Positions 14,594 to 36,833 of a DNA stretch of 64,000 nucleotides are shown here, one piece after another. The stretch lies in assembly GCA_964430885.1 (NCBI GenBank), contig CAYSHM010000006.1, positions 64,001 through 128,000 of the forward strand, in the 5' to 3' direction. The stretch is from an uncultured archaeon (GTDB lineage: Archaea; Thermoplasmatota; Penumbrarchaeia; JASLWR01). The translations under genes and the position numbers were made by a program. Positions within the stretch are counted from its first letter, which is position 1, and the number at the start of each line of letters is the position of its first letter. A model generated the notes under the pieces. The model had not been told where the DNA came from and did not search any database. It saw only the letters and a program-made list of their open reading frames with translations.

Positions 14594-15223
14594 TTGTCAG
14601 AAGGATTACAGTTGAGGACATTTATATTCATCGATCAGATGCAGCCGCAATTTGCAGCATATCAGGCTACTGTCGGGAGAGGTTATCTGCCAGTATCAGG
14701 TATGGCTGCAATATATATTGAAACTGCACCCGGAATGCCCATCAATCGGGTTACGGATCTGGCATTGAAATATACAAGTGTGAGACCGGCAGAACTAATA
14801 GTGGAGCGAGCTTTTGGAATGTTGGAATTCCATCATGAATCCCAGTCCGAGGTCAGAACAGCGGGAAAAGCCGTTCTAGATGGCCTAGGTTTGGAGGAGA
14901 TGGACAGATATAAACCAAAGGTTGTGACCAATGAGATAATCAAGAAAATAGATGATTACCAGTCAATGATAATCAATCGTTCCTGGAGGGGTATGATGAT
15001 CCTTCATGATCATTCTCTCTTCATTATGGAGACTCAGCCTGCCGCTTATATAACCTATGCCGCAAACGAGGCCGAAAAGGCAGCAGATATCAATATTGTC
15101 GGCATCAGGGCAGCCGGTGCCTTTGGCAGGCTGTACATCAGCGGTTGGGAATCCGATGTCAGGGCCGCAGCGGATGCCGCTACGACGGCCATAGAGGGTA
15201 TTGACGGTAGGGATGATTGGTAG
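14594..15223 (+). CDS. BMC shell protein, permuted tandem-domain trimer (BMC-T, CcmP/CsoS1D/Haliangium T2-like)
   Basis: LRTFIFIDQMQPQFAAY...IETAPG...VERAFGMLEFH...ETQPAAY...AANEAEKAA...GAFGRLY. TTG start preceded by AGGAGG. Confidence 0.92.
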   Translation: MSEGLQLRTFIFIDQMQPQFAAYQATVGRGYLPVSGMAAIYIETAPGMPINRVTDLALKYTSVRPAELIVERAFGMLEFHHESQSEVRTAGKAVLDGLGLEEMDRYKPKVVTNEIIKKIDDYQSMIINRSWRGMMILHDHSLFIMETQPAAYITYAANEAEKAADINIVGIRAAGAFGRLYISGWESDVRAAADAATTAIEGIDGRDDW

Positions 15224-15245
15224 TTCCGCCGACCTAGGTGTCTTT

Positions 15246-15992
15246 ATGGATCCCGACCGTCTCAGGACCATCGTTCTGGAGCAGGTACGGAGATATTTTC
15301 AGAACGAGGGAATGGAGTTCATTCGATATGAAAAGGATTCCGAAGAAGGATCTAAAGGTATATTGATAGTGATAAACCGAACTGATCCATCAATGGACCT
15401 TTTATTCAGCCAGATAAACAATCTGGTATCTGCTGGTCATAACATCACATTGATGAGCACCTCCGAAGTGAGGGCAATATTGGGCCAGCAGGGCTATTGG
15501 TCACTTGACCGGATCACCTACTTGTCTATTGATGATACCCGAAAGGTCAACATGAAAATTGACGAATATTGGTCCCTGCTATTTCCGGTTATAGGTTACT
15601 CCCTGGCCGGAGAGATATCAGCCTTAAAAGATACAAATCCATTGGCGGATTTGGCTTTGACGGCCCTGCGCAGTGGATTGGATGTCGGAGTGGCAGTGGA
15701 TACCCTTGAGACTGTAGGGAAGAAGGCTCGTAGGCCAAAGCTGATCTCCGAGTCCACCAGGATACAGAAGGGCTTATCGGGAATAGGCGTGAGATTGGTA
15801 ACCCTGGAAAATATGGTCAACGAGATGTCCTTTGACAAACGGAGGTTCACAGGCCGAGTGCTGACAGAGGATATAATAAACAGCTATATGTCCCGTGGCG
15901 TGTTCGATATCAATGTGGATGAAGATACTGTGATCACGCCTTTGGCAAGGGAAAGGGCAAGGGAGTTGAACATTCGAATAAATATCATTTAG
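15246..15992 (+). CDS. BMC-associated flavoprotein-like (HFCD/PF02441-like) protein with N-terminal encapsulation-peptide-like helix
   Basis: ATG at 15246 follows an AGGTG SD. N-terminal amphipathic helix MDPDRLRTIVLEQVRRYF. C-terminal VLTEDII...TVITPLARERARELNIRI motif is typical of BMC-locus accessory proteins. Confidence 0.6.
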   Translation: MDPDRLRTIVLEQVRRYFQNEGMEFIRYEKDSEEGSKGILIVINRTDPSMDLLFSQINNLVSAGHNITLMSTSEVRAILGQQGYWSLDRITYLSIDDTRKVNMKIDEYWSLLFPVIGYSLAGEISALKDTNPLADLALTALRSGLDVGVAVDTLETVGKKARRPKLISESTRIQKGLSGIGVRLVTLENMVNEMSFDKRRFTGRVLTEDIINSYMSRGVFDINVDEDTVITPLARERARELNIRINII

Positions 15993-16040
15993 AAATTGAA
16001 TTAATAGGATCAGATATCATAGATCAAGGAGTGTAAGAAA

Positions 16041-16334
16041 ATGAAATTGTGCAGAGTGGTAGGAAATGTGGTAGCCACTGTCAAGGACCGAAACATCGAG
16101 TCCTTCAAGCTGATGATAGTACAACCGGTGGATTTCAAGGAACAGAAGCCCTATGGAGAGCCTCTAGTGGCAATAGATGCGGTTGGTGCCGGCCAAGATG
16201 AGCTGGTCCTGATAGTTCAGGGAAGTTCCGGCAGAATGACCGCTATAACTGACCAGAAACCGTCCGACTGTACGATAATGGCAATTGTGGATTTTGTGAC
16301 CTTAAACGGTGAACAGACCTTTGCAAAACGGTGA
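16041..16334 (+). CDS. BMC vertex pentamer (BMC-P, EutN/CcmL family)
   Basis: MKLCRVVGNVVATVK...VAIDAVGAGQDELVLIVQGSSGR...DCTIMAIVD. Confidence 0.95.
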   Translation: MKLCRVVGNVVATVKDRNIESFKLMIVQPVDFKEQKPYGEPLVAIDAVGAGQDELVLIVQGSSGRMTAITDQKPSDCTIMAIVDFVTLNGEQTFAKR

Positions 16335-16352
16335 TCGAGGGAGGTTTTAATA

Positions 16353-17783
16353 ATGGAGATCAGGCAGGATCAGATAAATAATATTGTGGATGAGATAGTT
16401 AGAAGAGTGGAGCTGGATATGAGCTATGGGAAACCGAACATGGGGCCAGCCAAGCAGGGAGGCACTACAGGTATCTACAGCACTATTGACGAGTGTATTG
16501 AGAAGGCGAAGAAGGCAAGAAAGTTTTTGATGTCAATGTCATTGGATCAAAGGCAGAAGCTGATAGATGCCATGAAAGGGGAGATATTGCAGAACGCAGA
16601 TCCTCTGGCCAAGCTTGCTGTTGAGGAGACTGGATTGGGTCGGTACAAGGACAAGGTGAATAAGAACATTCTGGCTGCGACAAAGACCCCTGGATGCGAG
16701 GACCTGCAGACTGAAGCCCAGACGGGCGACGACGGTCTCACACTGTACGAGATGGGGCCCTTTGGAATTATAGCTTCCATAACACCTACTACCAATCCCA
16801 CGTCAACGATCACATGCAACTCCATCGGCATGATCGCTGCTGGAAACGCTGTTGTGTTCAATCCCCATCCGAGGGCTACCAAGACCAGTCTGGAGACCAT
16901 AAGACTGCTGAACCGGGGTATTCAGTCGGCAGGAGGTCCTACTGATCTTATAACAACGGTTAAAAAACCAACAATTGACACAAGCCAGGCTCTTATGAAC
17001 CATAAGGAGGTCAATCTACTCTGCGTAACCGGCGGTGAAGGAGTGGTGCATTACGGTCTTACCAGAGGGAAAAAATGCATTGCAGCAGGTCCGGGAAATC
17101 CTCCTGTTTTCGTGGACGATACCGCTGATCTGATACGGGCGGGCAGGGATATTGTGGACGGAGCCAGTTTTGACAACAATATCCTCTGTATAGCTGAAAA
17201 AGAGGTTCTGGTATTCGAAAATGTGGCAGATAGGCTAATCTCTGAGATGAGGAAACACGGTGCACATCTGGTCAGCGGAAAGGAGATAGACCGGCTGATA
17301 GATTTGGTATTCAATGATCCCTCGGGAGAGATCCCCCTGGTGAACACCAAATGGGTGGGTCAGGATGCAGGTAAGATACTGCGGAACATAGGAATAACCG
17401 ATAAGTTCAATGCGCGATTGATCCTTGCCGAGGTTCCTCACGATCATCCATTCGTGCTGGCTGAAATGCTAATGCCAATACTGCCCATAGTTAGGGTGAA
17501 ATCCATAGATGAGGCCCTTAAAATTGGTCTGAGAGCCGAACATAGATTCAGACATACCGCAGCTATGCATTCCACAAATGTGGACAATATGACCAAGGTG
17601 GGACGGGCAATGGAAACCACAATATTCGTTAAGAACGCTCCATCCTATGCAGGTCTGGGTTTTGGAGGTGAGGGATACTGCTCCCTTACAATAGCCGGAC
17701 CAACCGGTGAAGGAGTTACAAGGGCGAGGAATTTTGCCAGATTGAGAAGATGTACGCTCAAGGATTCATTCAGAATTGTGTGA
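16353..17783 (+). CDS. CoA-acylating aldehyde dehydrogenase (EutE/PduP family) with N-terminal encapsulation peptide
   Basis: Motifs PTTNPT, TGGEGVV, AGPGNPP, catalytic FDNNILCIAEKE, HTAAMHS and TIAGPTGEG. N-terminal helix QDQINNIVDEIVRRVEL. Confidence 0.93.
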   Translation: MEIRQDQINNIVDEIVRRVELDMSYGKPNMGPAKQGGTTGIYSTIDECIEKAKKARKFLMSMSLDQRQKLIDAMKGEILQNADPLAKLAVEETGLGRYKDKVNKNILAATKTPGCEDLQTEAQTGDDGLTLYEMGPFGIIASITPTTNPTSTITCNSIGMIAAGNAVVFNPHPRATKTSLETIRLLNRGIQSAGGPTDLITTVKKPTIDTSQALMNHKEVNLLCVTGGEGVVHYGLTRGKKCIAAGPGNPPVFVDDTADLIRAGRDIVDGASFDNNILCIAEKEVLVFENVADRLISEMRKHGAHLVSGKEIDRLIDLVFNDPSGEIPLVNTKWVGQDAGKILRNIGITDKFNARLILAEVPHDHPFVLAEMLMPILPIVRVKSIDEALKIGLRAEHRFRHTAAMHSTNVDNMTKVGRAMETTIFVKNAPSYAGLGFGGEGYCSLTIAGPTGEGVTRARNFARLRRCTLKDSFRIV

Positions 17784-17830
17784 ATAATAATCGATAATAA
17801 ATATTTCAGTCCAGCAGATCAGGTGAAAAA

Positions 17831-19192
17831 ATGGCTTCATTGGGAACGGATATGGTAAGGAACTCGGGGATAATAGGTGCGGGTGGTGCAGGTTTTCCTA
17901 CCCATGTCAAGCTGGCAGCTAAGGTTGATTGTGTAATAGCCAATGGTGCCGAATGTGAACCCCTTCTCAAGGCGGATAAGCAGCTCATGGAGCATTTCCC
18001 TGAAAAAATACTGGATGGTATGAAAGCAGCCATGGATATGACGGGAGCCCAGAAAGGTATAATAGCTCTAAAGAGAAAGTATGCGGATGCGGTGTCCTCC
18101 TTCAGAACTCGATTGGCGGATGCTGTGAACGGTAGATATGAAGGAATATCCATATTTGAACTTGAGAACTTCTATCCTGCAGGCGACGAACAGGTCATGG
18201 TCTATGAAGTGTTAGGACGGGTAATTCCCGAAGGCGCCATACCATTGTCAGCAGGTGTTGTTGTGGACAATGTGGGGACCCTGGCCCAAATATCGGAAGC
18301 CATTGAAGGAAAAAATGTTACCCATCGGTGGGTAACGGTCACTGGTGAAGTGGCCTACCCAAAGACCCTTTACATCCCTATAGGTACTTCTATAGAAAAG
18401 ATGCTTGGATTGTGCGGGGGTCCGACAATAACCAATTACAGGATATTATCCGGAGGTCCCATGATGGGACGTCTAGTAAACCTTACCGATAGTGTTCTGA
18501 AAACCACCTCGGGTATCATAGTTTTCCCGGCAGATCATTATGTTGTGAAGGCTAAAACCCGCCCGGTGGAAGTGAATGTTAGGTATACTTTAGCGGCATG
18601 CATTCAGTGCAAAATGTGCACTGATGTATGTCCCAGATTCAATCTGGGTAAGTATGTATGTCCGGACAGTGTGATGAAAGGCATCGCTTACGGAATACTT
18701 TCAAAACCGGAGGATATGACCACCGCATTCCTCTGCGTTGAGTGCGGATTATGCACCCATTACGGATGCCCTATGGGTTTGGACCCCTGCGGTATGATGG
18801 GGAAGGTCAAATCCGAACTTATTTCCGAAGGTATGACGAACCCACATTCAAGGACGGATCTGTCTGCCAGGGAATACAGGCCTTTCAGAAAGGTTCCCCT
18901 AAAAAGATTGATGGCCAGGATGGATCTTTTGAGATATGATGTACCGGCACCCATGGAGCTGAAGGACCTATCGAAGGTTATTACAGAAGTGAATATCCCT
19001 CTTAAACAGCACATAGGCGCGCCTTCGAAACCTGTTGTGAAAGTGGGAGATCAAGTGAAGAAGGGTGAACTGATAGCAGATATTCCAAAAGGTTCTCTGG
19101 GGGCACGGTATCATTCCAGCATTAACGGTGAAGTAACAGGTGTGGATTCCTGCATCAGTATTAGAGCAAAGAAAATCGGAGGAATTGAATGA
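17831..19192 (+). CDS. PduS/RnfC-like NADH-dependent Fe-S flavoprotein
   Basis: GAGGAGFPT, NGAECEP, YPAGDE and GGPMMG motifs. Two 4Fe-4S motifs, CIQCKMCTDVCP and CVECGLCTHYGCP. C-terminal QHIGAP barrel-sandwich domain as in PduS. Confidence 0.9.
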   Translation: MASLGTDMVRNSGIIGAGGAGFPTHVKLAAKVDCVIANGAECEPLLKADKQLMEHFPEKILDGMKAAMDMTGAQKGIIALKRKYADAVSSFRTRLADAVNGRYEGISIFELENFYPAGDEQVMVYEVLGRVIPEGAIPLSAGVVVDNVGTLAQISEAIEGKNVTHRWVTVTGEVAYPKTLYIPIGTSIEKMLGLCGGPTITNYRILSGGPMMGRLVNLTDSVLKTTSGIIVFPADHYVVKAKTRPVEVNVRYTLAACIQCKMCTDVCPRFNLGKYVCPDSVMKGIAYGILSKPEDMTTAFLCVECGLCTHYGCPMGLDPCGMMGKVKSELISEGMTNPHSRTDLSAREYRPFRKVPLKRLMARMDLLRYDVPAPMELKDLSKVITEVNIPLKQHIGAPSKPVVKVGDQVKKGELIADIPKGSLGARYHSSINGEVTGVDSCISIRAKKIGGIE

Positions 19193-19746
19193 GAGAGTCT
19201 ATAGGTCTCATGGAGTTCAACAGCATTGCAAAGGGTATTGAGGTGACGGATGTTCTTCTGAAGGCTTCCGAGGTGGAACTCATATTCTCATCGCCGGTGT
19301 GTCCTGGAAAGTATCTGATAATGATCTCTGGTGAGGTGGAGGCTGTTAAGAATTCACTGGGAAAAGGAGCCGACATATCGGATGGTTTCCTCATCGATCA
19401 AAGTGTAATACCTCAGGTTCATGAAAAGGTGTTCCCAGCCATAGCTGGGACCACACTGCCCGAGGTGATGGGGGCCATTGGTGTCATAGACTGCTATTCT
19501 TCGGTTTCGGCAGTAGTGGCAGCCGATAAAGCGGTGAAATCCGCCGATGTAGATCTGCTGGAGATTCGATTGGCCAGGGCGTTGGGAGGAAAGGCCTTTG
19601 TCATAATAACAGGTGAGGTTGCCGATGTGAGGGCAGGTGTCGATAACGGAGTTGAGTCCATAAAGGAACACGGACTGCTGCTGGGCACAGTGGTAATTCC
19701 GTCCCCCCACCAGGACCTACTGGAAACGTTGATAGGATCGAGATGA
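19189..19746 (+). CDS. PduT-like tandem-domain BMC shell protein (BMC-T) with Fe-S-ligating Cys
   Basis: SIGLMEFNSIAKG...VCPGKY with Cys at residue 38, as in PduT, and a second domain RLARALGGKAFV. ATGA overlap with the pduS-like gene. Confidence 0.92.
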   Translation: MRESIGLMEFNSIAKGIEVTDVLLKASEVELIFSSPVCPGKYLIMISGEVEAVKNSLGKGADISDGFLIDQSVIPQVHEKVFPAIAGTTLPEVMGAIGVIDCYSSVSAVVAADKAVKSADVDLLEIRLARALGGKAFVIITGEVADVRAGVDNGVESIKEHGLLLGTVVIPSPHQDLLETLIGSR

Positions 19747-19843
19747 TCAGATCATAAATTCATATCACGATTAATTAAATTAATTAATTGATGAATAATT
19801 TGAAGAATATAATCAAGAAGATGAAAAATAGAAGTTGATTGAA

Positions 19844-20350
19844 ATGAGAATTTGCAGGGTAATAGGCAATCTGGTATCCACATGCAAGATACCTGATCAC
19901 GAAGGTTTCAAGATACTGGCGGTTCGTGCTGTCGATCTTCACGGCAGAATGCATGGTGAGACCTTTCAGGCTATAGATTGCGCCCAGGCAGGTGTGGGTG
20001 ATTTTGTGCTCGTGATAGAGGAAGGAGGCTCCTGCAGTCAGGTGATGAGCGGAGTTAAGTCGCTAACCCCCAAGGGTGACCGGGTGGCAGTCAACAAGTC
20101 CATTCTTGCTGTTGTGGATTATATTGAGGCTGATGGAGAGCTCAGAAGGCTGGAGCAGACAGCAGAGATGGAAGAGGATGGAGGAAAGAAAAAATTAAGA
20201 AGTACCAAGGTTAAAAGAAAGACCTCCAAGGCTACTGGAAAAAAGGGTAAAGAAAAAAAAAGTGAAAAAACGTCAGGAAAAAATTCCCGCAAACCTGCTA
20301 AAACCTTGGCAACAAAGAAAGGCAAGGGCGGTAAGAAGAAGAAGGGTTGA
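19844..20350 (+). CDS. BMC-P (EutN/CcmL) vertex protein with Lys-rich C-terminal extension
   Basis: MRICRVIGNLVSTCK...AIDCAQAGVGDFVLVIEEGGS...ILAVVD, followed by a ~56-aa tail containing 23 Lys and 3 Arg. Confidence 0.88.
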   Translation: MRICRVIGNLVSTCKIPDHEGFKILAVRAVDLHGRMHGETFQAIDCAQAGVGDFVLVIEEGGSCSQVMSGVKSLTPKGDRVAVNKSILAVVDYIEADGELRRLEQTAEMEEDGGKKKLRSTKVKRKTSKATGKKGKEKKSEKTSGKNSRKPAKTLATKKGKGGKKKKG

Positions 20351-20356
20351 TAGATT

Positions 20357-29095: not shown

Positions 29096-29311
29096 ATGCA
29101 TATACAAAAACAGACCAAGTATTTGGATACACCTAACAGCAAATACTTAAAGGTGAAATGTCACGACTGCATGAACGAGCAGGTAATATTCAACAAGGCC
29201 AGTAATGTTGTGAAATGTTTGGTTTGCGGGGCTACTTTAGCAGAACCCACCGGCGGAATGGCCAAGGTAAAGAGTAAGATATTGGCCGTTGTTGACAGAA
29301 AGTACAGATGA
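29096..29311 (+). CDS. rps27e: 30S ribosomal protein S27e
   Basis: [20 protein letters not shown]...[16 protein letters not shown], in the conserved archaeal gene order. Confidence 0.96.
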
Positions 29312-29325
29312 AGGTAGAGATTTAT

Positions 29326-30099
29326 ATGGCAAACCGATTCGAATGGCCTTTGGAAGATGAACTGGTTGTATGTACCGTAAAAAGGGTTCTTGATTATGGT
29401 GCTTTTGTTACCCTGGATGAATATCAGGATAAAGAAGGCTTCATCCATATTGCTGAGATCGCTTCCGGTTGGGTCAAATATATCGGCAACCATATTAGAG
29501 AAAAGGCCAAGGTTGTTACCAAGGTCCTTCGTGTGGATCCTCGAAGGGAGCATATAGATCTCTCCTTGAAGAGGGTCAATGACCACCAGAAGAGGGCAAA
29601 GATACAGGAGTGGAGAAGAAATACCAAGATGCTGAAGCTCTTCGAACTTCTCTCAAAAAGAATAGAGAAAGAGCTGAAATTGTGTTATAGAGAGTTTGGT
29701 TTCTCACTGATGGAGAAATACGGCTCCCTTTATAACTCCTTTGAAGCGGTATCTATCAATAACAATGTCCTTGAAGAGGACGGTTTCCAGGGAGACTGGG
29801 TGGAGCATTTTGTTGATATTGCACGGACCAATATAACTCCCCCCTATGTATCCATTTCAGAGAAAATATACCTATTCTCTCCTGCTCCCAATGGAGTGGA
29901 ACATGTTAAGGAAGCTATAGGTTCGGTGATCAAAAATTCCGAGGAAAACGTCAAGATCACCTATGTAGGGGCGCCGGAATACCGGATCTCCGTCATCGCC
30001 CGCGATTATAAAAATGCGGAATCAGTAATGGCTAATACTGCAGGAGATGTTATTGATAAGATAACATCAACGGGCGGTTATGGTTCATTCGATAGATAA
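29326..30099 (+). CDS. eif2a: Translation initiation factor 2 alpha subunit (aIF2alpha)
   Basis: S1 domain ELVVCTVKRVLDYGAFVTLDEY...EGFIHIAEIASGWVK...IDLSLKRV and YVGAPEYRI. The start could alternatively be 29308. Confidence 0.95.
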   Translation: MANRFEWPLEDELVVCTVKRVLDYGAFVTLDEYQDKEGFIHIAEIASGWVKYIGNHIREKAKVVTKVLRVDPRREHIDLSLKRVNDHQKRAKIQEWRRNTKMLKLFELLSKRIEKELKLCYREFGFSLMEKYGSLYNSFEAVSINNNVLEEDGFQGDWVEHFVDIARTNITPPYVSISEKIYLFSPAPNGVEHVKEAIGSVIKNSEENVKITYVGAPEYRISVIARDYKNAESVMANTAGDVIDKITSTGGYGSFDR

Positions 30100-30125
30100 A
30101 TAATTTTTTCAAGAGGGCATGGATC

Positions 30126-30305
30126 ATGAAGCATTTTTTATTCAAGTGTTCAGAATGTTCAGTCTATACTATGGACCAACAATGCCCAGAATGCGGTAAT
30201 ACAGCTTGGGCTGTGGAACCCCCTCGTTTTTCACCACAGGACCGTTGGGGGAAATACCGCAGAAAGTTATTACTTAACTTGGAGAATGATGAGAATGATG
30301 GATAG
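30126..30305 (+). CDS. nop10: H/ACA RNP protein Nop10 (not in ORF track, 59 aa)
   Basis: Manual translation MKHFLFKCSECSVYTMDQQCPECGNTAWAVEPPRFSPQDRWGKYRRKLL..., at the canonical position after aIF2alpha. Confidence 0.93.
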   Translation: MKHFLFKCSECSVYTMDQQCPECGNTAWAVEPPRFSPQDRWGKYRRKLLLNLENDENDG

Positions 30306-31062
30306 TGTGATCTTCCAAAAGGAAAATGTTCCCGATTGCCAGAATGCGGTATTGATAGAGGGATTACCGGGAATAGGACGGGTAGGTCAGATAGCAGCAG
30401 ATTATTTGGTGGAAAAATTGAATTCGGAAAAATTTATCACAATTTATTCACCCTTCTTTCCTCCTCAGGTTATGGTTGATGATGAGGGTCTGGTTCATCC
30501 CATGATTCAGGAAATGCATCACTGCATCACTAAATCAGGACGTCATTTACTGTTCTTAACCGGAGACTATCAGGGTTTGACTGGCGAAGCCCAGTATGCT
30601 CTCAGTCATGAAGTATTGAAACTCGCAAGCTCCATGGATGTGAAAGAGATCATAACTCTAGGTGGTTACGGTGTTAGAAAGATACTTGAAGAACCCAGGG
30701 TACTCGGTGCTGCCACTTCAAATGAAATTGTCTCCAAAATGGAGGAATTTCAGGTTGTGTTCAAAAGCGAACACCCCACGGGCGGTATTGTAGGAGCATC
30801 CGGTATATTGCTTGGATTGGCTCCGCTGTTTGATCTTGAAGGGGTTTGCCTAATGGGTGAGACCCATGGTGCCTATCCAGATCATATTGCTGCAAAGATG
30901 ATATTGAAGGTGCTGGATGCATATCTGGATCTGGATCTTGTTTATGATGATCTGGATGAACCCTCTCCCGCCCTGGAGGCCCTGAAGGCCCAGATAAAGG
31001 AAATGGATCAGGAAGCAGAAAAAGGTTACAAGGAAGAACAAGAACTGAACTATTTTGTATGA
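30286..31062 (+). CDS. PAC2-family proteasome assembly chaperone-like protein
   Basis: IEGLPGIGRVG, FPPQV, IITLGGY, GIVGASG and CLMGET motifs, in conserved synteny after nop10. Confidence 0.9.
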   Translation: MMRMMDSVIFQKENVPDCQNAVLIEGLPGIGRVGQIAADYLVEKLNSEKFITIYSPFFPPQVMVDDEGLVHPMIQEMHHCITKSGRHLLFLTGDYQGLTGEAQYALSHEVLKLASSMDVKEIITLGGYGVRKILEEPRVLGAATSNEIVSKMEEFQVVFKSEHPTGGIVGASGILLGLAPLFDLEGVCLMGETHGAYPDHIAAKMILKVLDAYLDLDLVYDDLDEPSPALEALKAQIKEMDQEAEKGYKEEQELNYFV

Positions 31063-35912: not shown

Positions 35913-36833
35913 GTGTTAAATTTGGATGGGACAGTCTCTAAAGAGTTCAGGAAGGATATCGTGAACAGTTATTCAGGTCTAGAGGAATTGCCGCGCTTTC
36001 CGATTCTAGATAATCATTTGCATCTGGACCCCTCAGGTTGCGCCCCCCGAGTATTGAAGGATTTTGTTGATTTTGGAGGTACCCATATTGTAGTGGTTCA
36101 CAAACCCTATCGGCAGAGACCCATTTTAAAAAAGGATGATTTCAATAAGAGCTTTGATATTACTGTAGGTCTTGCAGATAACATAGAGAACGATACTCCC
36201 CTCTCAGTAATCAAAATGATAGGTCCTTATCCGGTGAACCTTATTCATCTGGAAAAAAAACACGGACTTGAAAAAGCTGAGGATATAATGATCCAAGGTA
36301 TGGAATTGGCTGGCAAGTATGTCGAAGAAGGGAAGGCTCAGGGCATAGGGGAGATAGGTCGGCCTCATTTTGATGTGCATCCCGAAATAATCGATGCATC
36401 CAACCGAATACTAGAGCATGGCCTTTCAATTGCCAGTGATCTGGAGTGTCCGGTTCATCTTCATACAGAGTCGGGGAATTCCGAACTTTTTCTGGAGATA
36501 TCATATATGGCAAAAAGAGCCGGTTGTGATCTGGACAAGGTTGTGAAGCATTTCTCGGGACCAATGGTGGATCTTATTGAAAACCATGGTCTTTTTCCAT
36601 CCGTTCTAGCAAGCAGCAGAAATGTGAAAACCGCAGTTGTCAAGAATACTAGATTTGTAATGGAAACAGATTATATGGATGATCCCAAAAGACCTGGGGC
36701 CGTGATGGTTCCCAAGACCATACCTAAAAGGACATTTGAATTGATATCCAAAGGTCTTTTGGATGAAAAGGGAGTATATGATATTCATTCATATTGGCCA
36801 GGCCGGATCTACAACATGGATTTTGATCTGTAG
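35913..36833 (+). CDS. TatD-family metal-dependent hydrolase (archaeal type)
   Basis: DNHLH, GIGEIGRPH, HLHTE, KHFS and ETDYMDDPKRPGAV motifs. Confidence 0.88.
   Translation: MLNLDGTVSKEFRKDIVNSYSGLEELPRFPILDNHLHLDPSGCAPRVLKDFVDFGGTHIVVVHKPYRQRPILKKDDFNKSFDITVGLADNIENDTPLSVIKMIGPYPVNLIHLEKKHGLEKAEDIMIQGMELAGKYVEEGKAQGIGEIGRPHFDVHPEIIDASNRILEHGLSIASDLECPVHLHTESGNSELFLEISYMAKRAGCDLDKVVKHFSGPMVDLIENHGLFPSVLASSRNVKTAVVKNTRFVMETDYMDDPKRPGAVMVPKTIPKRTFELISKGLLDEKGVYDIHSYWPGRIYNMDFDL

What the first reader, a model, noticed from the sequence alone, without database searches (positions are those of the whole stretch)
20180..20350. Vertex protein (BMC-P) with a histone-H1-like polybasic tail
Seen: after a normal EutN/CcmL domain, the ORF continues for ~56 residues containing 23 Lys, 3 Arg and only 2 Glu (GGKKKLRSTKVKRKTSKATGKKGKEKK...KKGKGGKKKKG). 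It stops 6 nt before the tpiA ATG. Established: typical BMC-P proteins are ~90-100 aa without such tails. Inference: pentamers displaying polycationic arms could tether the organelle to the nucleoid, polyphosphate or membrane (no McdAB- or PduV-like positioning gene is present), or could capture nucleic acid or phosphorylated substrate.
Basis: partly seen in the sequence, partly recalled or inferred. Interest (0 to 1): 0.8.

Follow-up and report, generated by a model that had tools for sequence, protein, structure and literature searches.

The report
Lysine-rich tail on archaeal microcompartment vertex
A vertex protein of a protein-shelled, sugar-phosphate-burning organelle in a marine archaeon carries a real 56-residue lysine-rich floppy tail, a feature recently described in Asgard archaea, where it binds DNA and RNA, but here it sits on a different copy of the vertex protein and seems to have arisen separately.

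Summary
ORF 19844-20350 (+) encodes a 168-aa EutN/CcmL (BMC-P) protein. Residues 113-168 hold 23 K, 3 R and 2 E, are predicted disordered, and end 6 nt before tpiA. Contigs from two DNA runs and one RNA-library contig reproduce the sequence, including the A9 run, with no differences.

The host is an archaeon. Its closest named relative is a JASLWR01 Thermoplasmatota MAG. The locus is a sugar-phosphate-utilisation (SPU) microcompartment.

A Nov 2025 preprint (PMC12747264) already reports K/R-rich disordered tails on the AMC-P2 pentamer of Hodarchaeales and shows that they bind DNA/RNA. So the kind is known.

What is new is the placement. The tail here sits on the orthologue of the untailed AMC-P3, while this genome's AMC-P2 orthologue (21835-22137) has no tail (tree; AU test p 8e-10). 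The two sets of tails share no detectable sequence similarity. No other homologue found has a long tail: 0 of 10, though one has a 13-residue basic end.

The gain is therefore recent, lineage-specific and probably convergent. An outward-facing polycation that binds nucleic acid is the most likely function, by analogy only. K-rich tails are also common elsewhere in this genome, so a neutral origin remains a serious rival.

The parts
19844..20350 (+). Gene for the tailed vertex protein (168 aa plus stop). It is the orthologue of the untailed Hodarchaeales AMC-P3, the 'post-Ts' paralogue.
   Evidence: ORF list; Pfam EutN_CcmL, E 8.8e-14; fold matches CcmL 4n8x and the Haliangium ochraceum shell BMC-P 5v74 at E about 1e-7; tree placement with support 99/90*.
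19844..20179 (+). BMC-P domain plus a conserved C-terminal hairpin and short helix (residues 1-112). It ends in the acidic patch AEMEED.
   Evidence: AF2 block pLDDT is 85-93 over most of the core, with dips to 55-61 in two loop blocks. Strands reach residue 102 and a helix covers 103-106. The region is conserved in 10 homologues up to about residue 105.
20180..20347 (+). Polybasic disordered tail, residues 113-168: 23 K, 3 R, 2 E, net charge +24.
   Evidence: Composition. No secondary structure and block pLDDT of 53-63. No tandem repeat in the DNA. No counterpart in the relatives' DNA.
20253..20261 (+). A9 homopolymer inside the tail (codons 137-140).
   Evidence: Position. Reproduced without indels in contigs of X1, X2 and the RNA library X4. 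The 27 tail residues up to and including this run (12 K and 2 R, counted by hand from the tail sequence printed) do not depend on its length.
14594..15223 (+). CcmP-like tandem BMC-domain shell protein (BMC-Tdp).
   Evidence: NCBIfam CcmP, E 1.8e-76, 256 bits, below the equivalog cut-off of 340; Pfam BMC.
16041..16334 (+). BMC-P paralogue 1 (97 aa, no tail).
   Evidence: Pfam EutN_CcmL, E 1.8e-27; lies in the P1 clade.
16353..17783 (+). Aldehyde dehydrogenase.
   Evidence: Pfam Aldedh, E 2.6e-37.
17831..19192 (+). RnfC/PduS-like Fe-S flavoprotein. It corresponds to the 'metabolosome NADH dehydrogenase' of the preprint.
   Evidence: Pfam Complex1_51K, RnfC_N, Fer4_17 and SLBB.
19189..19746 (+). 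Tandem BMC-domain shell protein (BMC-Ts).
   Evidence: Pfam BMC, two stretches, E 2.1e-43.
20357..21271 (+). Triosephosphate isomerase with an N-terminal extension of about 55 residues that is conserved in relatives.
   Evidence: Pfam TIM covers residues 56-302. Orthologues in L002 and L003 start with a similar peptide.
21262..21747 (+). Ribose-5-phosphate isomerase B.
   Evidence: Pfam LacAB_rpiB, E 6.9e-54.
21835..22137 (+). BMC-P paralogue (100 aa, no tail). It is the orthologue of the tailed Hodarchaeales AMC-P2.
   Evidence: Pfam EutN_CcmL; clade with the three tailed Hodarchaeota/Heimdallarchaeota proteins, support 100/99*.
22443..22736 (+). BMC-H hexamer protein.
   Evidence: Pfam BMC, E 9.4e-27.
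23068..24507 (+). Deoxyribose-phosphate aldolase with an N-terminal extension of about 265 residues.
   Evidence: NCBIfam deoC TIGR00126, 287 bits against a cut-off of 117, residues 267-476.

Best explanation
The gene encodes a genuine vertex (BMC-P) protein of an archaeal sugar-phosphate-utilisation microcompartment. This lineage has recently added a 56-residue lysine-rich, intrinsically disordered tail to its C-terminus.

Each pentamer would carry five tails, about +120 net charge. I infer that the tails project from the shell vertices into the cytoplasm and act as non-specific polyanion binders, most likely of DNA or RNA. Nucleic acid is the polymer whose breakdown yields the deoxyribose-5-phosphate that the enclosed aldolase consumes. 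This is what was shown for the K/R-rich tails of Hodarchaeales AMC-P2.

The tail here was gained independently of the Hodarchaeales ones, because it sits on a different paralogue.

Shown: the tail exists, lies in frame, is predicted disordered, is lineage-specific, and sits on a different paralogue.
Inferred: that it is translated, that it faces outward, that it binds nucleic acid, and that this benefits catabolism.

My odds: real coding extension 0.9; independent gain 0.8; nucleic-acid or polyanion binding as a selected function about 0.55.
For: Sequence and fold.

Assembly: four runs of one study give identical contigs across the tail, one of them from an RNA library.

Context: the locus is an SPU microcompartment. 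It holds deoC (287 bits), an aldehyde dehydrogenase, RpiB, TPI, an RnfC-like flavoprotein, and BMC-H, Ts, Tdp and three BMC-P genes. No PTAC was found in the genome, which matches the preprint's description of JASLWR01 operons.

Archaeal host:
- The SSU rRNA scores 1504 bits on the archaeal model and 1098 on the bacterial one.
- aIF2-alpha and a PAC2-family gene lie just downstream on the same contig.

Precedent: in 58 of 66 Hodarchaeales operons, AMC-P2 carries a K/R-rich disordered region of 36-137 aa. Full-length P2 and the isolated region bound DNA/RNA, and P2 without it did not (PMC12747264, results section read).

Different paralogue:
- A tree of 43 EutN domains gives three paralogue clades.
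- The window's tailed protein groups with the untailed Hodarchaeota/Heimdallarchaeota AMC-P3 (99/90*).
- The tailed Hodarchaeota/Heimdallarchaeota proteins group with the window's untailed 21835-22137 (100/99*).
- Forcing the four tailed rows into one clade costs 69.9 lnL units (p-AU 8e-10).
- The tails show no similarity (best E 1.7). Their make-up also differs: K/G/S/T here, K/P/R/T there.

Recurrence in the same organelle type:
- The closest homologue, P0002, has a 13-residue basic end.
- A Lindowbacteria SPU locus (L059: PTAC, P, RpiB, P, DeoC) has a BMC-P with a 21-residue basic tail (8 K/R) containing RRGRPKGS.

Outward display: a Strep-II tag on the pentamer pulls down whole shells (PMC6056538, passages). 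The preprint's AMC-P constructs carried C-terminal Strep-tags.
Against: - No binding, localisation or expression experiment exists for this protein.
- The tail is absent from the three related genomes that have the locus (G001, G002, G005) and from 9 of 10 database homologues. The organelle therefore works without it.
- K-rich disordered stretches are a habit of this genome. They occur on L21e, an AP_endonuc_2-family protein, a PilB-like ATPase, GrpE, an MscS-like channel and an RDD protein. Such tails may arise easily and neutrally here.
- The Hodarchaeales assay used isolated protein made in E. coli, not shells. Any polycation would co-purify with nucleic acid there.
- Sidedness of the C-terminus was not computed. 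The passages I saw in PMC6056538 do not say which end carried the tag.
- The RNA-library contig is a single 151-nt piece at depth 2.5 and could be carried-over DNA.
Confidence: 0.55

Rival explanations
1. The tail is a neutral by-product. A low-complexity AAG/AAA-rich extension arose by loss of the old stop and expansion of sequence. It is tolerated because a BMC-P C-terminus is free, and it has no selected function.
For: K-rich disordered stretches occur on many unrelated proteins of this genome. The tail is absent in the relatives G001, G002 and G005 and in 9 of 10 homologues. The tail DNA has no counterpart in the relatives.
Against: The closest homologue also ends in a basic stretch. Basic tails recur on vertex proteins of SPU-type compartments in three other lineages, against 4 of 365 EutN-like ORFs overall with >=30 extra residues. 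The frame stays open for 56 codons and ends exactly at the start region of the next gene.
Confidence: 0.25
2. The tails serve organelle positioning or spacing. They tether the compartment to the nucleoid, membrane or polyphosphate, or keep compartments apart by charge repulsion, and play no role in feeding substrate.
For: No PduV/EutP-family protein was found in the genome, which is 91.6% complete. Display at the vertices suits tethering. The physics is the same as for the best explanation.
Against: No evidence bears on it directly. Relatives without tails have no obvious replacement either. McdAB-like genes were not searched.
Confidence: 0.1
3. The tail faces the lumen and concentrates phosphorylated substrates, or binds acidic cargo or encapsulation peptides.
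For: The substrates are sugar phosphates. The tail follows an acidic patch (AEMEED), which hints at an electrostatic switch.
Against: Tags on BMC-P allow whole shells to be pulled down, so the tag is accessible from outside (PMC6056538). The Hodarchaeales tails bind nucleic acid. Sixty tails of 56 residues would crowd the vertices inside the shell.
Confidence: 0.05
4. The tail is an artefact. An assembly or homopolymer error, or read-through of a real stop, creates it.
For: Orthologues stop about 5-15 residues after the conserved region. The region holds five A runs of 6-9 bases. X1 and X2 may be the very data the genome was assembled from.
Against: An independent assembler reproduces the region with 0 differences at depth 14.6 and 18.4, and contigs of two further runs agree. 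The 27 tail residues up to the A9 (12 K and 2 R by my hand count of the sequence) do not depend on its length. There is no stop anywhere between the domain and 20348.
Confidence: 0.03

Closest known systems
Hodarchaeales AMC-P2 with a K/R-rich disordered region (Du et al., bioRxiv Nov 2025, PMC12747264)
   Same: A vertex pentamer of an archaeal SPU-type microcompartment with a C-terminal, positively charged disordered tail of similar length (36-137 aa there, 56 here). The operon core is the same: DERA with an N-terminal extra domain, AldDH, an RnfC-like flavoprotein, RpiB, H, Ts and three P genes.
   Different: A different paralogue carries the tail: the AMC-P3 orthologue here and AMC-P2 there. 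The phylum differs (the closest named relative is a JASLWR01 Thermoplasmatota MAG). The tails share no sequence similarity. The make-up here is K/G/S/T with 1 proline, against K/P/R/T with 9-11 prolines there. The tail occurs in this genome alone among the four locus-bearing genomes searched, against 58 of 66 operons there. [quoted passage not shown] Its supplementary tables were not available to me.
Canonical BMC-P / CcmL / EutN vertex proteins (PF03319; for example PDB 4n8x, 5v74, 2hd3)
   Same: The domain and fold match, and the gene lies in a shell-gene locus.
   Different: Those proteins are 83-99 residues long, with no tail. In my sample the ORFs at the best match in 80 loci were 87-129 aa.
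Short basic tails with an RGRP core on bacterial BMC-P (loci L045, L059, L075, found here)
   Same: A basic C-terminal extension on a vertex protein. L059 is also an SPU-type locus, with DeoC, RpiB and PTAC.
   Different: Those tails have only 21-22 residues beyond the profile envelope and are arginine- and glycine-rich, with an R-G-R-P core. I recall that core as the AT-hook motif and did not test it. The hosts are bacterial. The window's tail has no RGRP.
Histone H1 C-terminal domain and similar polylysine disordered regions (recalled)
   Same: Lysine-rich, disordered and strongly cationic, so non-specific polyanion binding is expected.
   Different: There is no homology. Pfam finds no linker-histone or other family in the protein apart from EutN_CcmL.
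Microcompartment positioning systems: McdAB of carboxysomes, PduV of Pdu compartments (recalled)
   Same: They would serve the same need if the tail tethers the organelle.
   Different: Those are separate ATPase/GTPase-based systems. No PduV/EutP family member was found in the genome. McdAB was not searched.

Membership tests
BMC-P (EutN/CcmL, PF03319) vertex protein | Match to the family profile above the curated cut-off | tested here: met
   52.2 bits against a cut-off of 25, residues 1-92.
BMC-P (EutN/CcmL, PF03319) vertex protein | OB-like beta-barrel fold of solved BMC-P proteins | tested here: met
   The AF2 model's domain matches CcmL 4n8x (E 7e-8, TM over target 0.73) and the Haliangium shell BMC-P 5v74 (TM 0.79).
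BMC-P (EutN/CcmL, PF03319) vertex protein | Encoded beside BMC-H/BMC-T shell genes and cargo enzymes | tested here: met
   BMC-Ts lies directly upstream. BMC-H, Tdp and two further BMC-P genes lie within 6 kb.
BMC-P (EutN/CcmL, PF03319) vertex protein | Forms pentamers that cap shell vertices | not tested
   The complex predictor takes at most 4 copies, so no job was sent.
SPU-type (sugar-phosphate utilisation) metabolosome | Deoxyribose-phosphate aldolase as the signature enzyme, with an aldehyde dehydrogenase | tested here: met
   deoC TIGR00126 at 287 bits against a cut-off of 117; Aldedh at E 2.6e-37.
SPU-type (sugar-phosphate utilisation) metabolosome | Phosphotransacylase (PTAC) for CoA recycling | tested here: not met
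   No PF06130 match in the genome, which is 91.6% complete. The preprint reports the same lack for JASLWR01 operons.
Hodarchaeales AMC-P2-IDR proteins | K/R-rich disordered region fused C-terminally to the pentamer domain | tested here: met
   26 K+R in 56 residues; no secondary structure; block pLDDT 53-63.
Hodarchaeales AMC-P2-IDR proteins | Orthology to AMC-P2 (the paralogue that follows RpiB) | tested here: not met
   It groups with AMC-P3 (99/90*). One clade for all tailed rows is rejected at p-AU 8e-10.
Hodarchaeales AMC-P2-IDR proteins | Tail-dependent binding of DNA/RNA | not testable with these tools
   Needs purified protein.
Histone H1 / linker histone | Winged-helix globular domain or a family profile match | tested here: not met
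   Pfam at E<=0.01 returns only EutN_CcmL.
AT-hook DNA-binding motif | R-G-R-P core (recalled) | tested here: not met
   The core is absent from the tail sequence printed.

The most novel reading that the evidence does not exclude
Microcompartments that burn deoxyribose phosphate have repeatedly and independently put nucleic-acid-binding polycations on their vertex proteins. The cases are AMC-P2 in Hodarchaeales, the AMC-P3 orthologue in this Thermoplasmatota lineage, and short RGRP-containing tails in Lindowbacteria-type bacteria. On this reading, docking the organelle onto its polymeric substrate source (DNA/RNA), or onto the nucleases that act on it, is a general, selected design principle of SPU organelles. 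It would not be a Hodarchaeales peculiarity, and it would also occur in bacteria, contrary to the preprint's statement that the feature is not seen in BMCs.
Probability: 0.3. Interest if true: 0.7.

Novelty: new variant of a known kind. Interest (0 to 1): 0.5.

Why it matters
The DNA-capture model for archaeal microcompartments rests on one lineage, Hodarchaeales, and one paralogue. An independent gain of a polycationic tail would be comparative evidence that the charge at the vertices is selected. Here the gain is on another paralogue, in another archaeal phylum, in the same type of organelle, and hints of it appear in bacterial SPU loci.

It also offers a natural pair for experiments. The tailed protein of this genome and its untailed orthologues are 63-66% identical. 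They could be swapped to test what the tail does to DNA binding, shell assembly and organelle placement.

The case also shows that vertex C-termini tolerate long appended sequences, which is useful for shell engineering.

Tried and rejected
- Metagenome contig scans, run to fetch the DNA of the closest homologues (P0002, P0003) and see how the tail grew.
- DNA alignment of the 3' end with L011 and L002. It is uninformative beyond the domain.
- Tandem repeats in the tail DNA. None were found, so there is no evidence for expansion of a repeat unit.
- Search with P0090 (a 146-aa BMC-P with a K/R tail from unnamed contigs) in genome contigs. The best match was 51% identical and untailed, so its origin stays unknown.
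- Cluster look-up of 7 proteins. It gave no names.
- Literature on which side of the shell the BMC-P C-terminus faces. The passages found in PMC6056538, PMC10902431 and PMC6787980 describe BMC-H termini as external and Strep-tagged pentamers pulling down shells. They do not state the orientation of the BMC-P C-terminus, so sidedness stays an inference.
- PDB sequence search of the DHH-like neighbour. It gave only a chance-level hit.
- The RNA library X4 covers 4 of the 30 bins laid. Apart from the tail piece it holds only a 34-base piece with 3 differences (record 16, 20795-20828), which I did not take as evidence. One 151-nt piece does not show transcription.
- Complex prediction. It was not used, because a pentamer exceeds its 4 copies and BMC-P self-assembly is textbook.
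- Supplementary tables of PMC12747264 (its lists of disordered regions). They may show whether JASLWR01 proteins were examined there.
- 'Not in print' claim. I found no report of a tailed BMC-P in JASLWR01/Thermoplasmatota. This rests on the searches and on the main text and figure legends of the preprint.

Full report
**1. What is in the sequence**

The ORF at 19835/19844-20350 (+) encodes 168 aa from the ATG that orthologues use.
- Pfam places an EutN/CcmL domain on residues 1-92 (E 8.8e-14).
- Residues 113-168 (20180-20347) read GGKKKLRSTKVKRKTSKATGKKGKEKKSEKTSGKNSRKPAKTLATKKGKGGKKKKG. They hold 23 K, 3 R, 2 E, 9 G and 11 S+T, for a net charge of +24.
- The stop TGA (20348-20350) is followed by an in-frame TAG. 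Six bases separate it from the tpiA ATG at 20357.
- The A9 run is at 20253-20261.

**2. Is the tail real?**

- The tail DNA is half adenine and is also open in a second frame, so openness alone says little.
- Logan contigs from two DNA runs (X1 at depth 14.6, X2 at depth 18.4; both may be the assembly's own source) span 19100-21400 with no difference and no gap.
- A third DNA run has an identical 151-nt contig over 20304-20454.
- An RNA-library run has an identical 151-nt contig over 20159-20309, which spans the A9.
- All four runs belong to one study. They are contigs, not reads, and the RNA piece could be carried-over DNA.
- The first 27 tail residues (12 K and 2 R by my hand count of the tail printed) lie before the end of the A9. 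The polybasic character therefore does not hinge on that homopolymer.
- AlphaFold2 with a 16-row alignment gives block pLDDT of 85-93 over most of the domain core. For residues 113-168 it gives no secondary structure and block pLDDT of 53-63.
- The domain's fold matches CcmL and the BMC-P of the solved Haliangium shell.

I put the odds that this is a true coding extension at 0.9.

**3. Context**

The locus is a sugar-phosphate-utilisation microcompartment. In order it holds:
- a CcmP-like Tdp (14594-15223)
- an unassigned 263-aa ORF
- BMC-P (16041-16334)
- aldehyde dehydrogenase
- an RnfC/PduS-like Fe-S flavoprotein
- BMC-Ts
- the tailed BMC-P
- TPI with an N-terminal extension
- RpiB
- a third BMC-P (21835-22137)
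- BMC-H
- deoxyribose-phosphate aldolase with a roughly 265-residue N-terminal extension

No PTAC and no PduV/EutP family member were found in the genome, which is 91.6% complete.

The host is an archaeon.
- The genome's SSU rRNA scores 1504 bits on the archaeal model and 1098 on the bacterial one.
- aIF2-alpha (29308-30099) and a PAC2-family gene (30286-31062) follow on the same contig.
- The closest named locus, L011, is from a Thermoplasmatota MAG whose accession prefix is JASLWR01. It is 64% identical in this protein and has the same gene order.

**4. What is known**

A bioRxiv preprint of Nov 2025 (PMC12747264; I read the abstract, results, figure legends and searched passages, not the supplements) reports archaeal microcompartments of the SPU type in Hodarchaeales.
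- In 58 of 66 operons, AMC-P2 is fused to a K/R-rich disordered region of 36-137 aa.
- Full-length P2 and the isolated region bound DNA/RNA, and P2 without it did not.
- The authors propose DNA capture for nutrient scavenging and say the feature is not seen in bacterial microcompartments.
- They mention operons in JASLWR01 (Thermoplasmatota) and SpSt-1190 with an extra Tdp, one H fewer and no PTAC. This fits the window.

So the kind of feature is known. Its occurrence in this lineage is not reported in the text I could see, or in any other paper found.

**5. The tail sits on a different paralogue**

In three Hodarchaeota/Heimdallarchaeota loci (L012, L013, L017) the gene order is AldDH, flavoprotein, H, Ts, RpiB, tailed P (138-158 aa), untailed P (99-102 aa), DERA.

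I built a tree of 43 EutN domains.
- They came from the window and 22 loci that I chose: all the archaeal loci, plus those named Myxococcota, Myxococcales or Deltaproteobacteria.
- One duplicate row, L021, was dropped.
- The other bacterial loci were not included.

The tree resolves three paralogue clades.
- The window's tailed protein groups with its JASLWR01-type orthologues and then with the untailed Hodarchaeota/Heimdallarchaeota P (support 99/90*).
- The tailed Hodarchaeota/Heimdallarchaeota proteins group with the window's untailed 21835-22137 and its L011 orthologue (100/99*). The tool warns of long branches at that join.
- Holding the four tailed rows together costs 69.9 log-likelihood units (p-AU 8e-10).

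The tails themselves show no similarity (best E 1.7). Their make-up differs: 1 proline and 9 glycines here, against 9-11 prolines and 0-1 glycine there. At least two independent gains are needed.

**6. How widespread is the tail?**

- *Word-indexed search of 5.8 billion proteins.* It returned 11 proteins, among them the window's own. The 10 others are 93-126 aa, and none has a long tail. The closest (P0002, 79% identity) ends in 13 residues with 6 K and 2 R. The next (P0003, 75%) ends acidic.
- *Related genomes.* 4 of 41 relatives, and 4 of the 37 genomes of the class, have the gene (G000 included). The syntenic orthologues in G001, G002 and G005 end 3-10 residues after the profile.
- *Exhaustive HMMER search.* It gave 342 hits at E<=1e-3. 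Of the 150 listed, 14 are >=127 aa, and I read 12 of these plus 8 shorter ones. One (P0090, 146 aa, from unnamed contigs) has a K/R-rich tail of about 40 residues, and three have short basic stretches.
- *Fetched loci.* Among 365 distinct EutN-like ORFs in 168 loci, 4 have >=30 residues past the profile envelope. All four are archaeal and basic: the window's and the three above. Three bacterial proteins (L045, L059, L075) have 21-22-residue tails containing RRGRPKGS.
- *L059.* This Lindowbacteria locus is itself an SPU locus, with PTAC, P, RpiB, P with tail, and DeoC.

**7. A caution**

This genome is fond of lysine-rich disordered stretches. Ranking all 3600 ORFs of >=100 aa by net charge in a 56-residue window puts the BMC-P tail among the top 6. 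Real proteins close behind include ribosomal L21e (twice the usual length), an AP_endonuc_2-family protein, a PilB-like ATPase, GrpE, an MscS-like channel and an RDD-family protein. Such tails may arise easily here, so a neutral origin cannot be dismissed.

**8. Mechanism**

The best-supported reading is that five tails per pentamer project from the vertices and bind polyanions, most plausibly DNA or RNA. This follows from the experiments on the Hodarchaeales tails and from the organelle's substrate, which is deoxyribose-5-phosphate derived from nucleic acid.

Outward display is inferred. Strep-tagged pentamers pull down intact shells (PMC6056538), and the preprint's AMC-P constructs carried C-terminal tags.

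Nothing was measured on this protein. The organelle evidently works without the tail in sister genomes.

**9. Verdict**

The feature is a new variant of a recently described kind. Its main interest is as likely convergent evidence that polycationic vertices are selected in SPU-type organelles.

Noticed in passing
window 14594-24507 with 29308-31062; G000:C2:232771-234239: The whole shell-gene locus lies in an archaeal genome. The SSU rRNA scores higher on the archaeal model, and aIF2-alpha and a PAC2-family gene lie directly downstream on the same contig.
   Followed up: yes
tree (window, L011, L002, L004, L012, L013, L017 against Myxococcota loci): In both the post-Ts and the post-RpiB paralogue clades, the Thermoplasmatota-type, G005 and Hodarchaeota/Heimdallarchaeota proteins group together apart from Myxococcota (99/90* and 100/99*). 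This hints at one shared archaeal origin, or transfer between archaea, rather than the separate transfers from bacteria that the preprint proposes. The tool warns of long branches here.
   Followed up: partly
window 24621-26480 (+); L011 8058-8333: A 619-aa ORF right after the aldolase gene has weak similarity to the DHH domain of archaeal RecJ-family nucleases (NCBIfam E 4e-7, far below the cut-off; Pfam DHH E 6e-4). The same gene starts at the same place in L011 (50% identity over the 38 residues held, E 6e-12). A nuclease or phosphoesterase beside a deoxyribose-phosphate organelle would fit nucleic-acid catabolism.
   Followed up: partly
window 35913-36833 (+): A TatD-family DNase gene (Pfam E 1e-24) lies about 11 kb downstream of the locus.
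   Followed up: no
G000:C26:44222-45999 (- strand): A second, small shell-gene cluster sits on another contig. It has a fourth EutN-family ORF (91 aa) next to ORFs of 178 and 259 aa whose N-termini look like BMC domains. I judged that by eye and did not scan them.
   Followed up: partly
G000: C3:18006-18593, C4:164353-165495, C2:72631-74829, C7:43775-44929, C1:16594-18978, C5:4697-5923: Lysine-rich low-complexity stretches are appended to many unrelated proteins of this genome: L21e, an AP_endonuc_2-family protein, a PilB-like ATPase, GrpE, an MscS-like channel and an RDD-family protein. It looks like a genome-wide habit.
   Followed up: partly
L059 5084-5452; L045 358-747; L075 4459-4848 (-): Bacterial BMC-P proteins (two from Lindowbacteria MAGs, one from an uncultured bacterium) end in basic tails of 21-22 residues beyond the profile envelope that contain RRGRPKGS. 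I recall that core as the AT-hook. L059 is an SPU-type locus. This runs against the preprint's remark that tailed pentamers are not seen in bacterial microcompartments.
   Followed up: partly
protein P0090 (146 aa, unnamed metagenome contigs up to 237 kb): A BMC-P with a cysteine-rich linker followed by a K/R-rich tail of about 40 residues. Its origin and locus type are unknown. The best named relative is 51% identical and untailed.
   Followed up: partly
window 20253-20261 and the frames downstream: If the A9 were one base shorter, the alternative frame would stay open and basic into the tpiA start region. If it were one base longer, the frame would stop within a few codons. Slippage at this run could therefore give tail variants. 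No variation was seen in the contigs.
   Followed up: no
window 15201-15992 (+): A 263-aa ORF between the Tdp gene and the first BMC-P has no Pfam family. It has only a weak, sub-threshold hit to an ethanolamine-utilisation hypothetical family (TIGR02536, E 0.002).
   Followed up: no
window 20357-20520; L003 1908-; L002 1841-: The triosephosphate isomerase has an N-terminal extension of about 55 residues. Its first 20 or so residues are conserved among relatives (pattern M-x-E-D-x-L-[RK]-K-[ML]-[IV]-E-[NR]-M-V-R). It looks like an encapsulation peptide.
   Followed up: no
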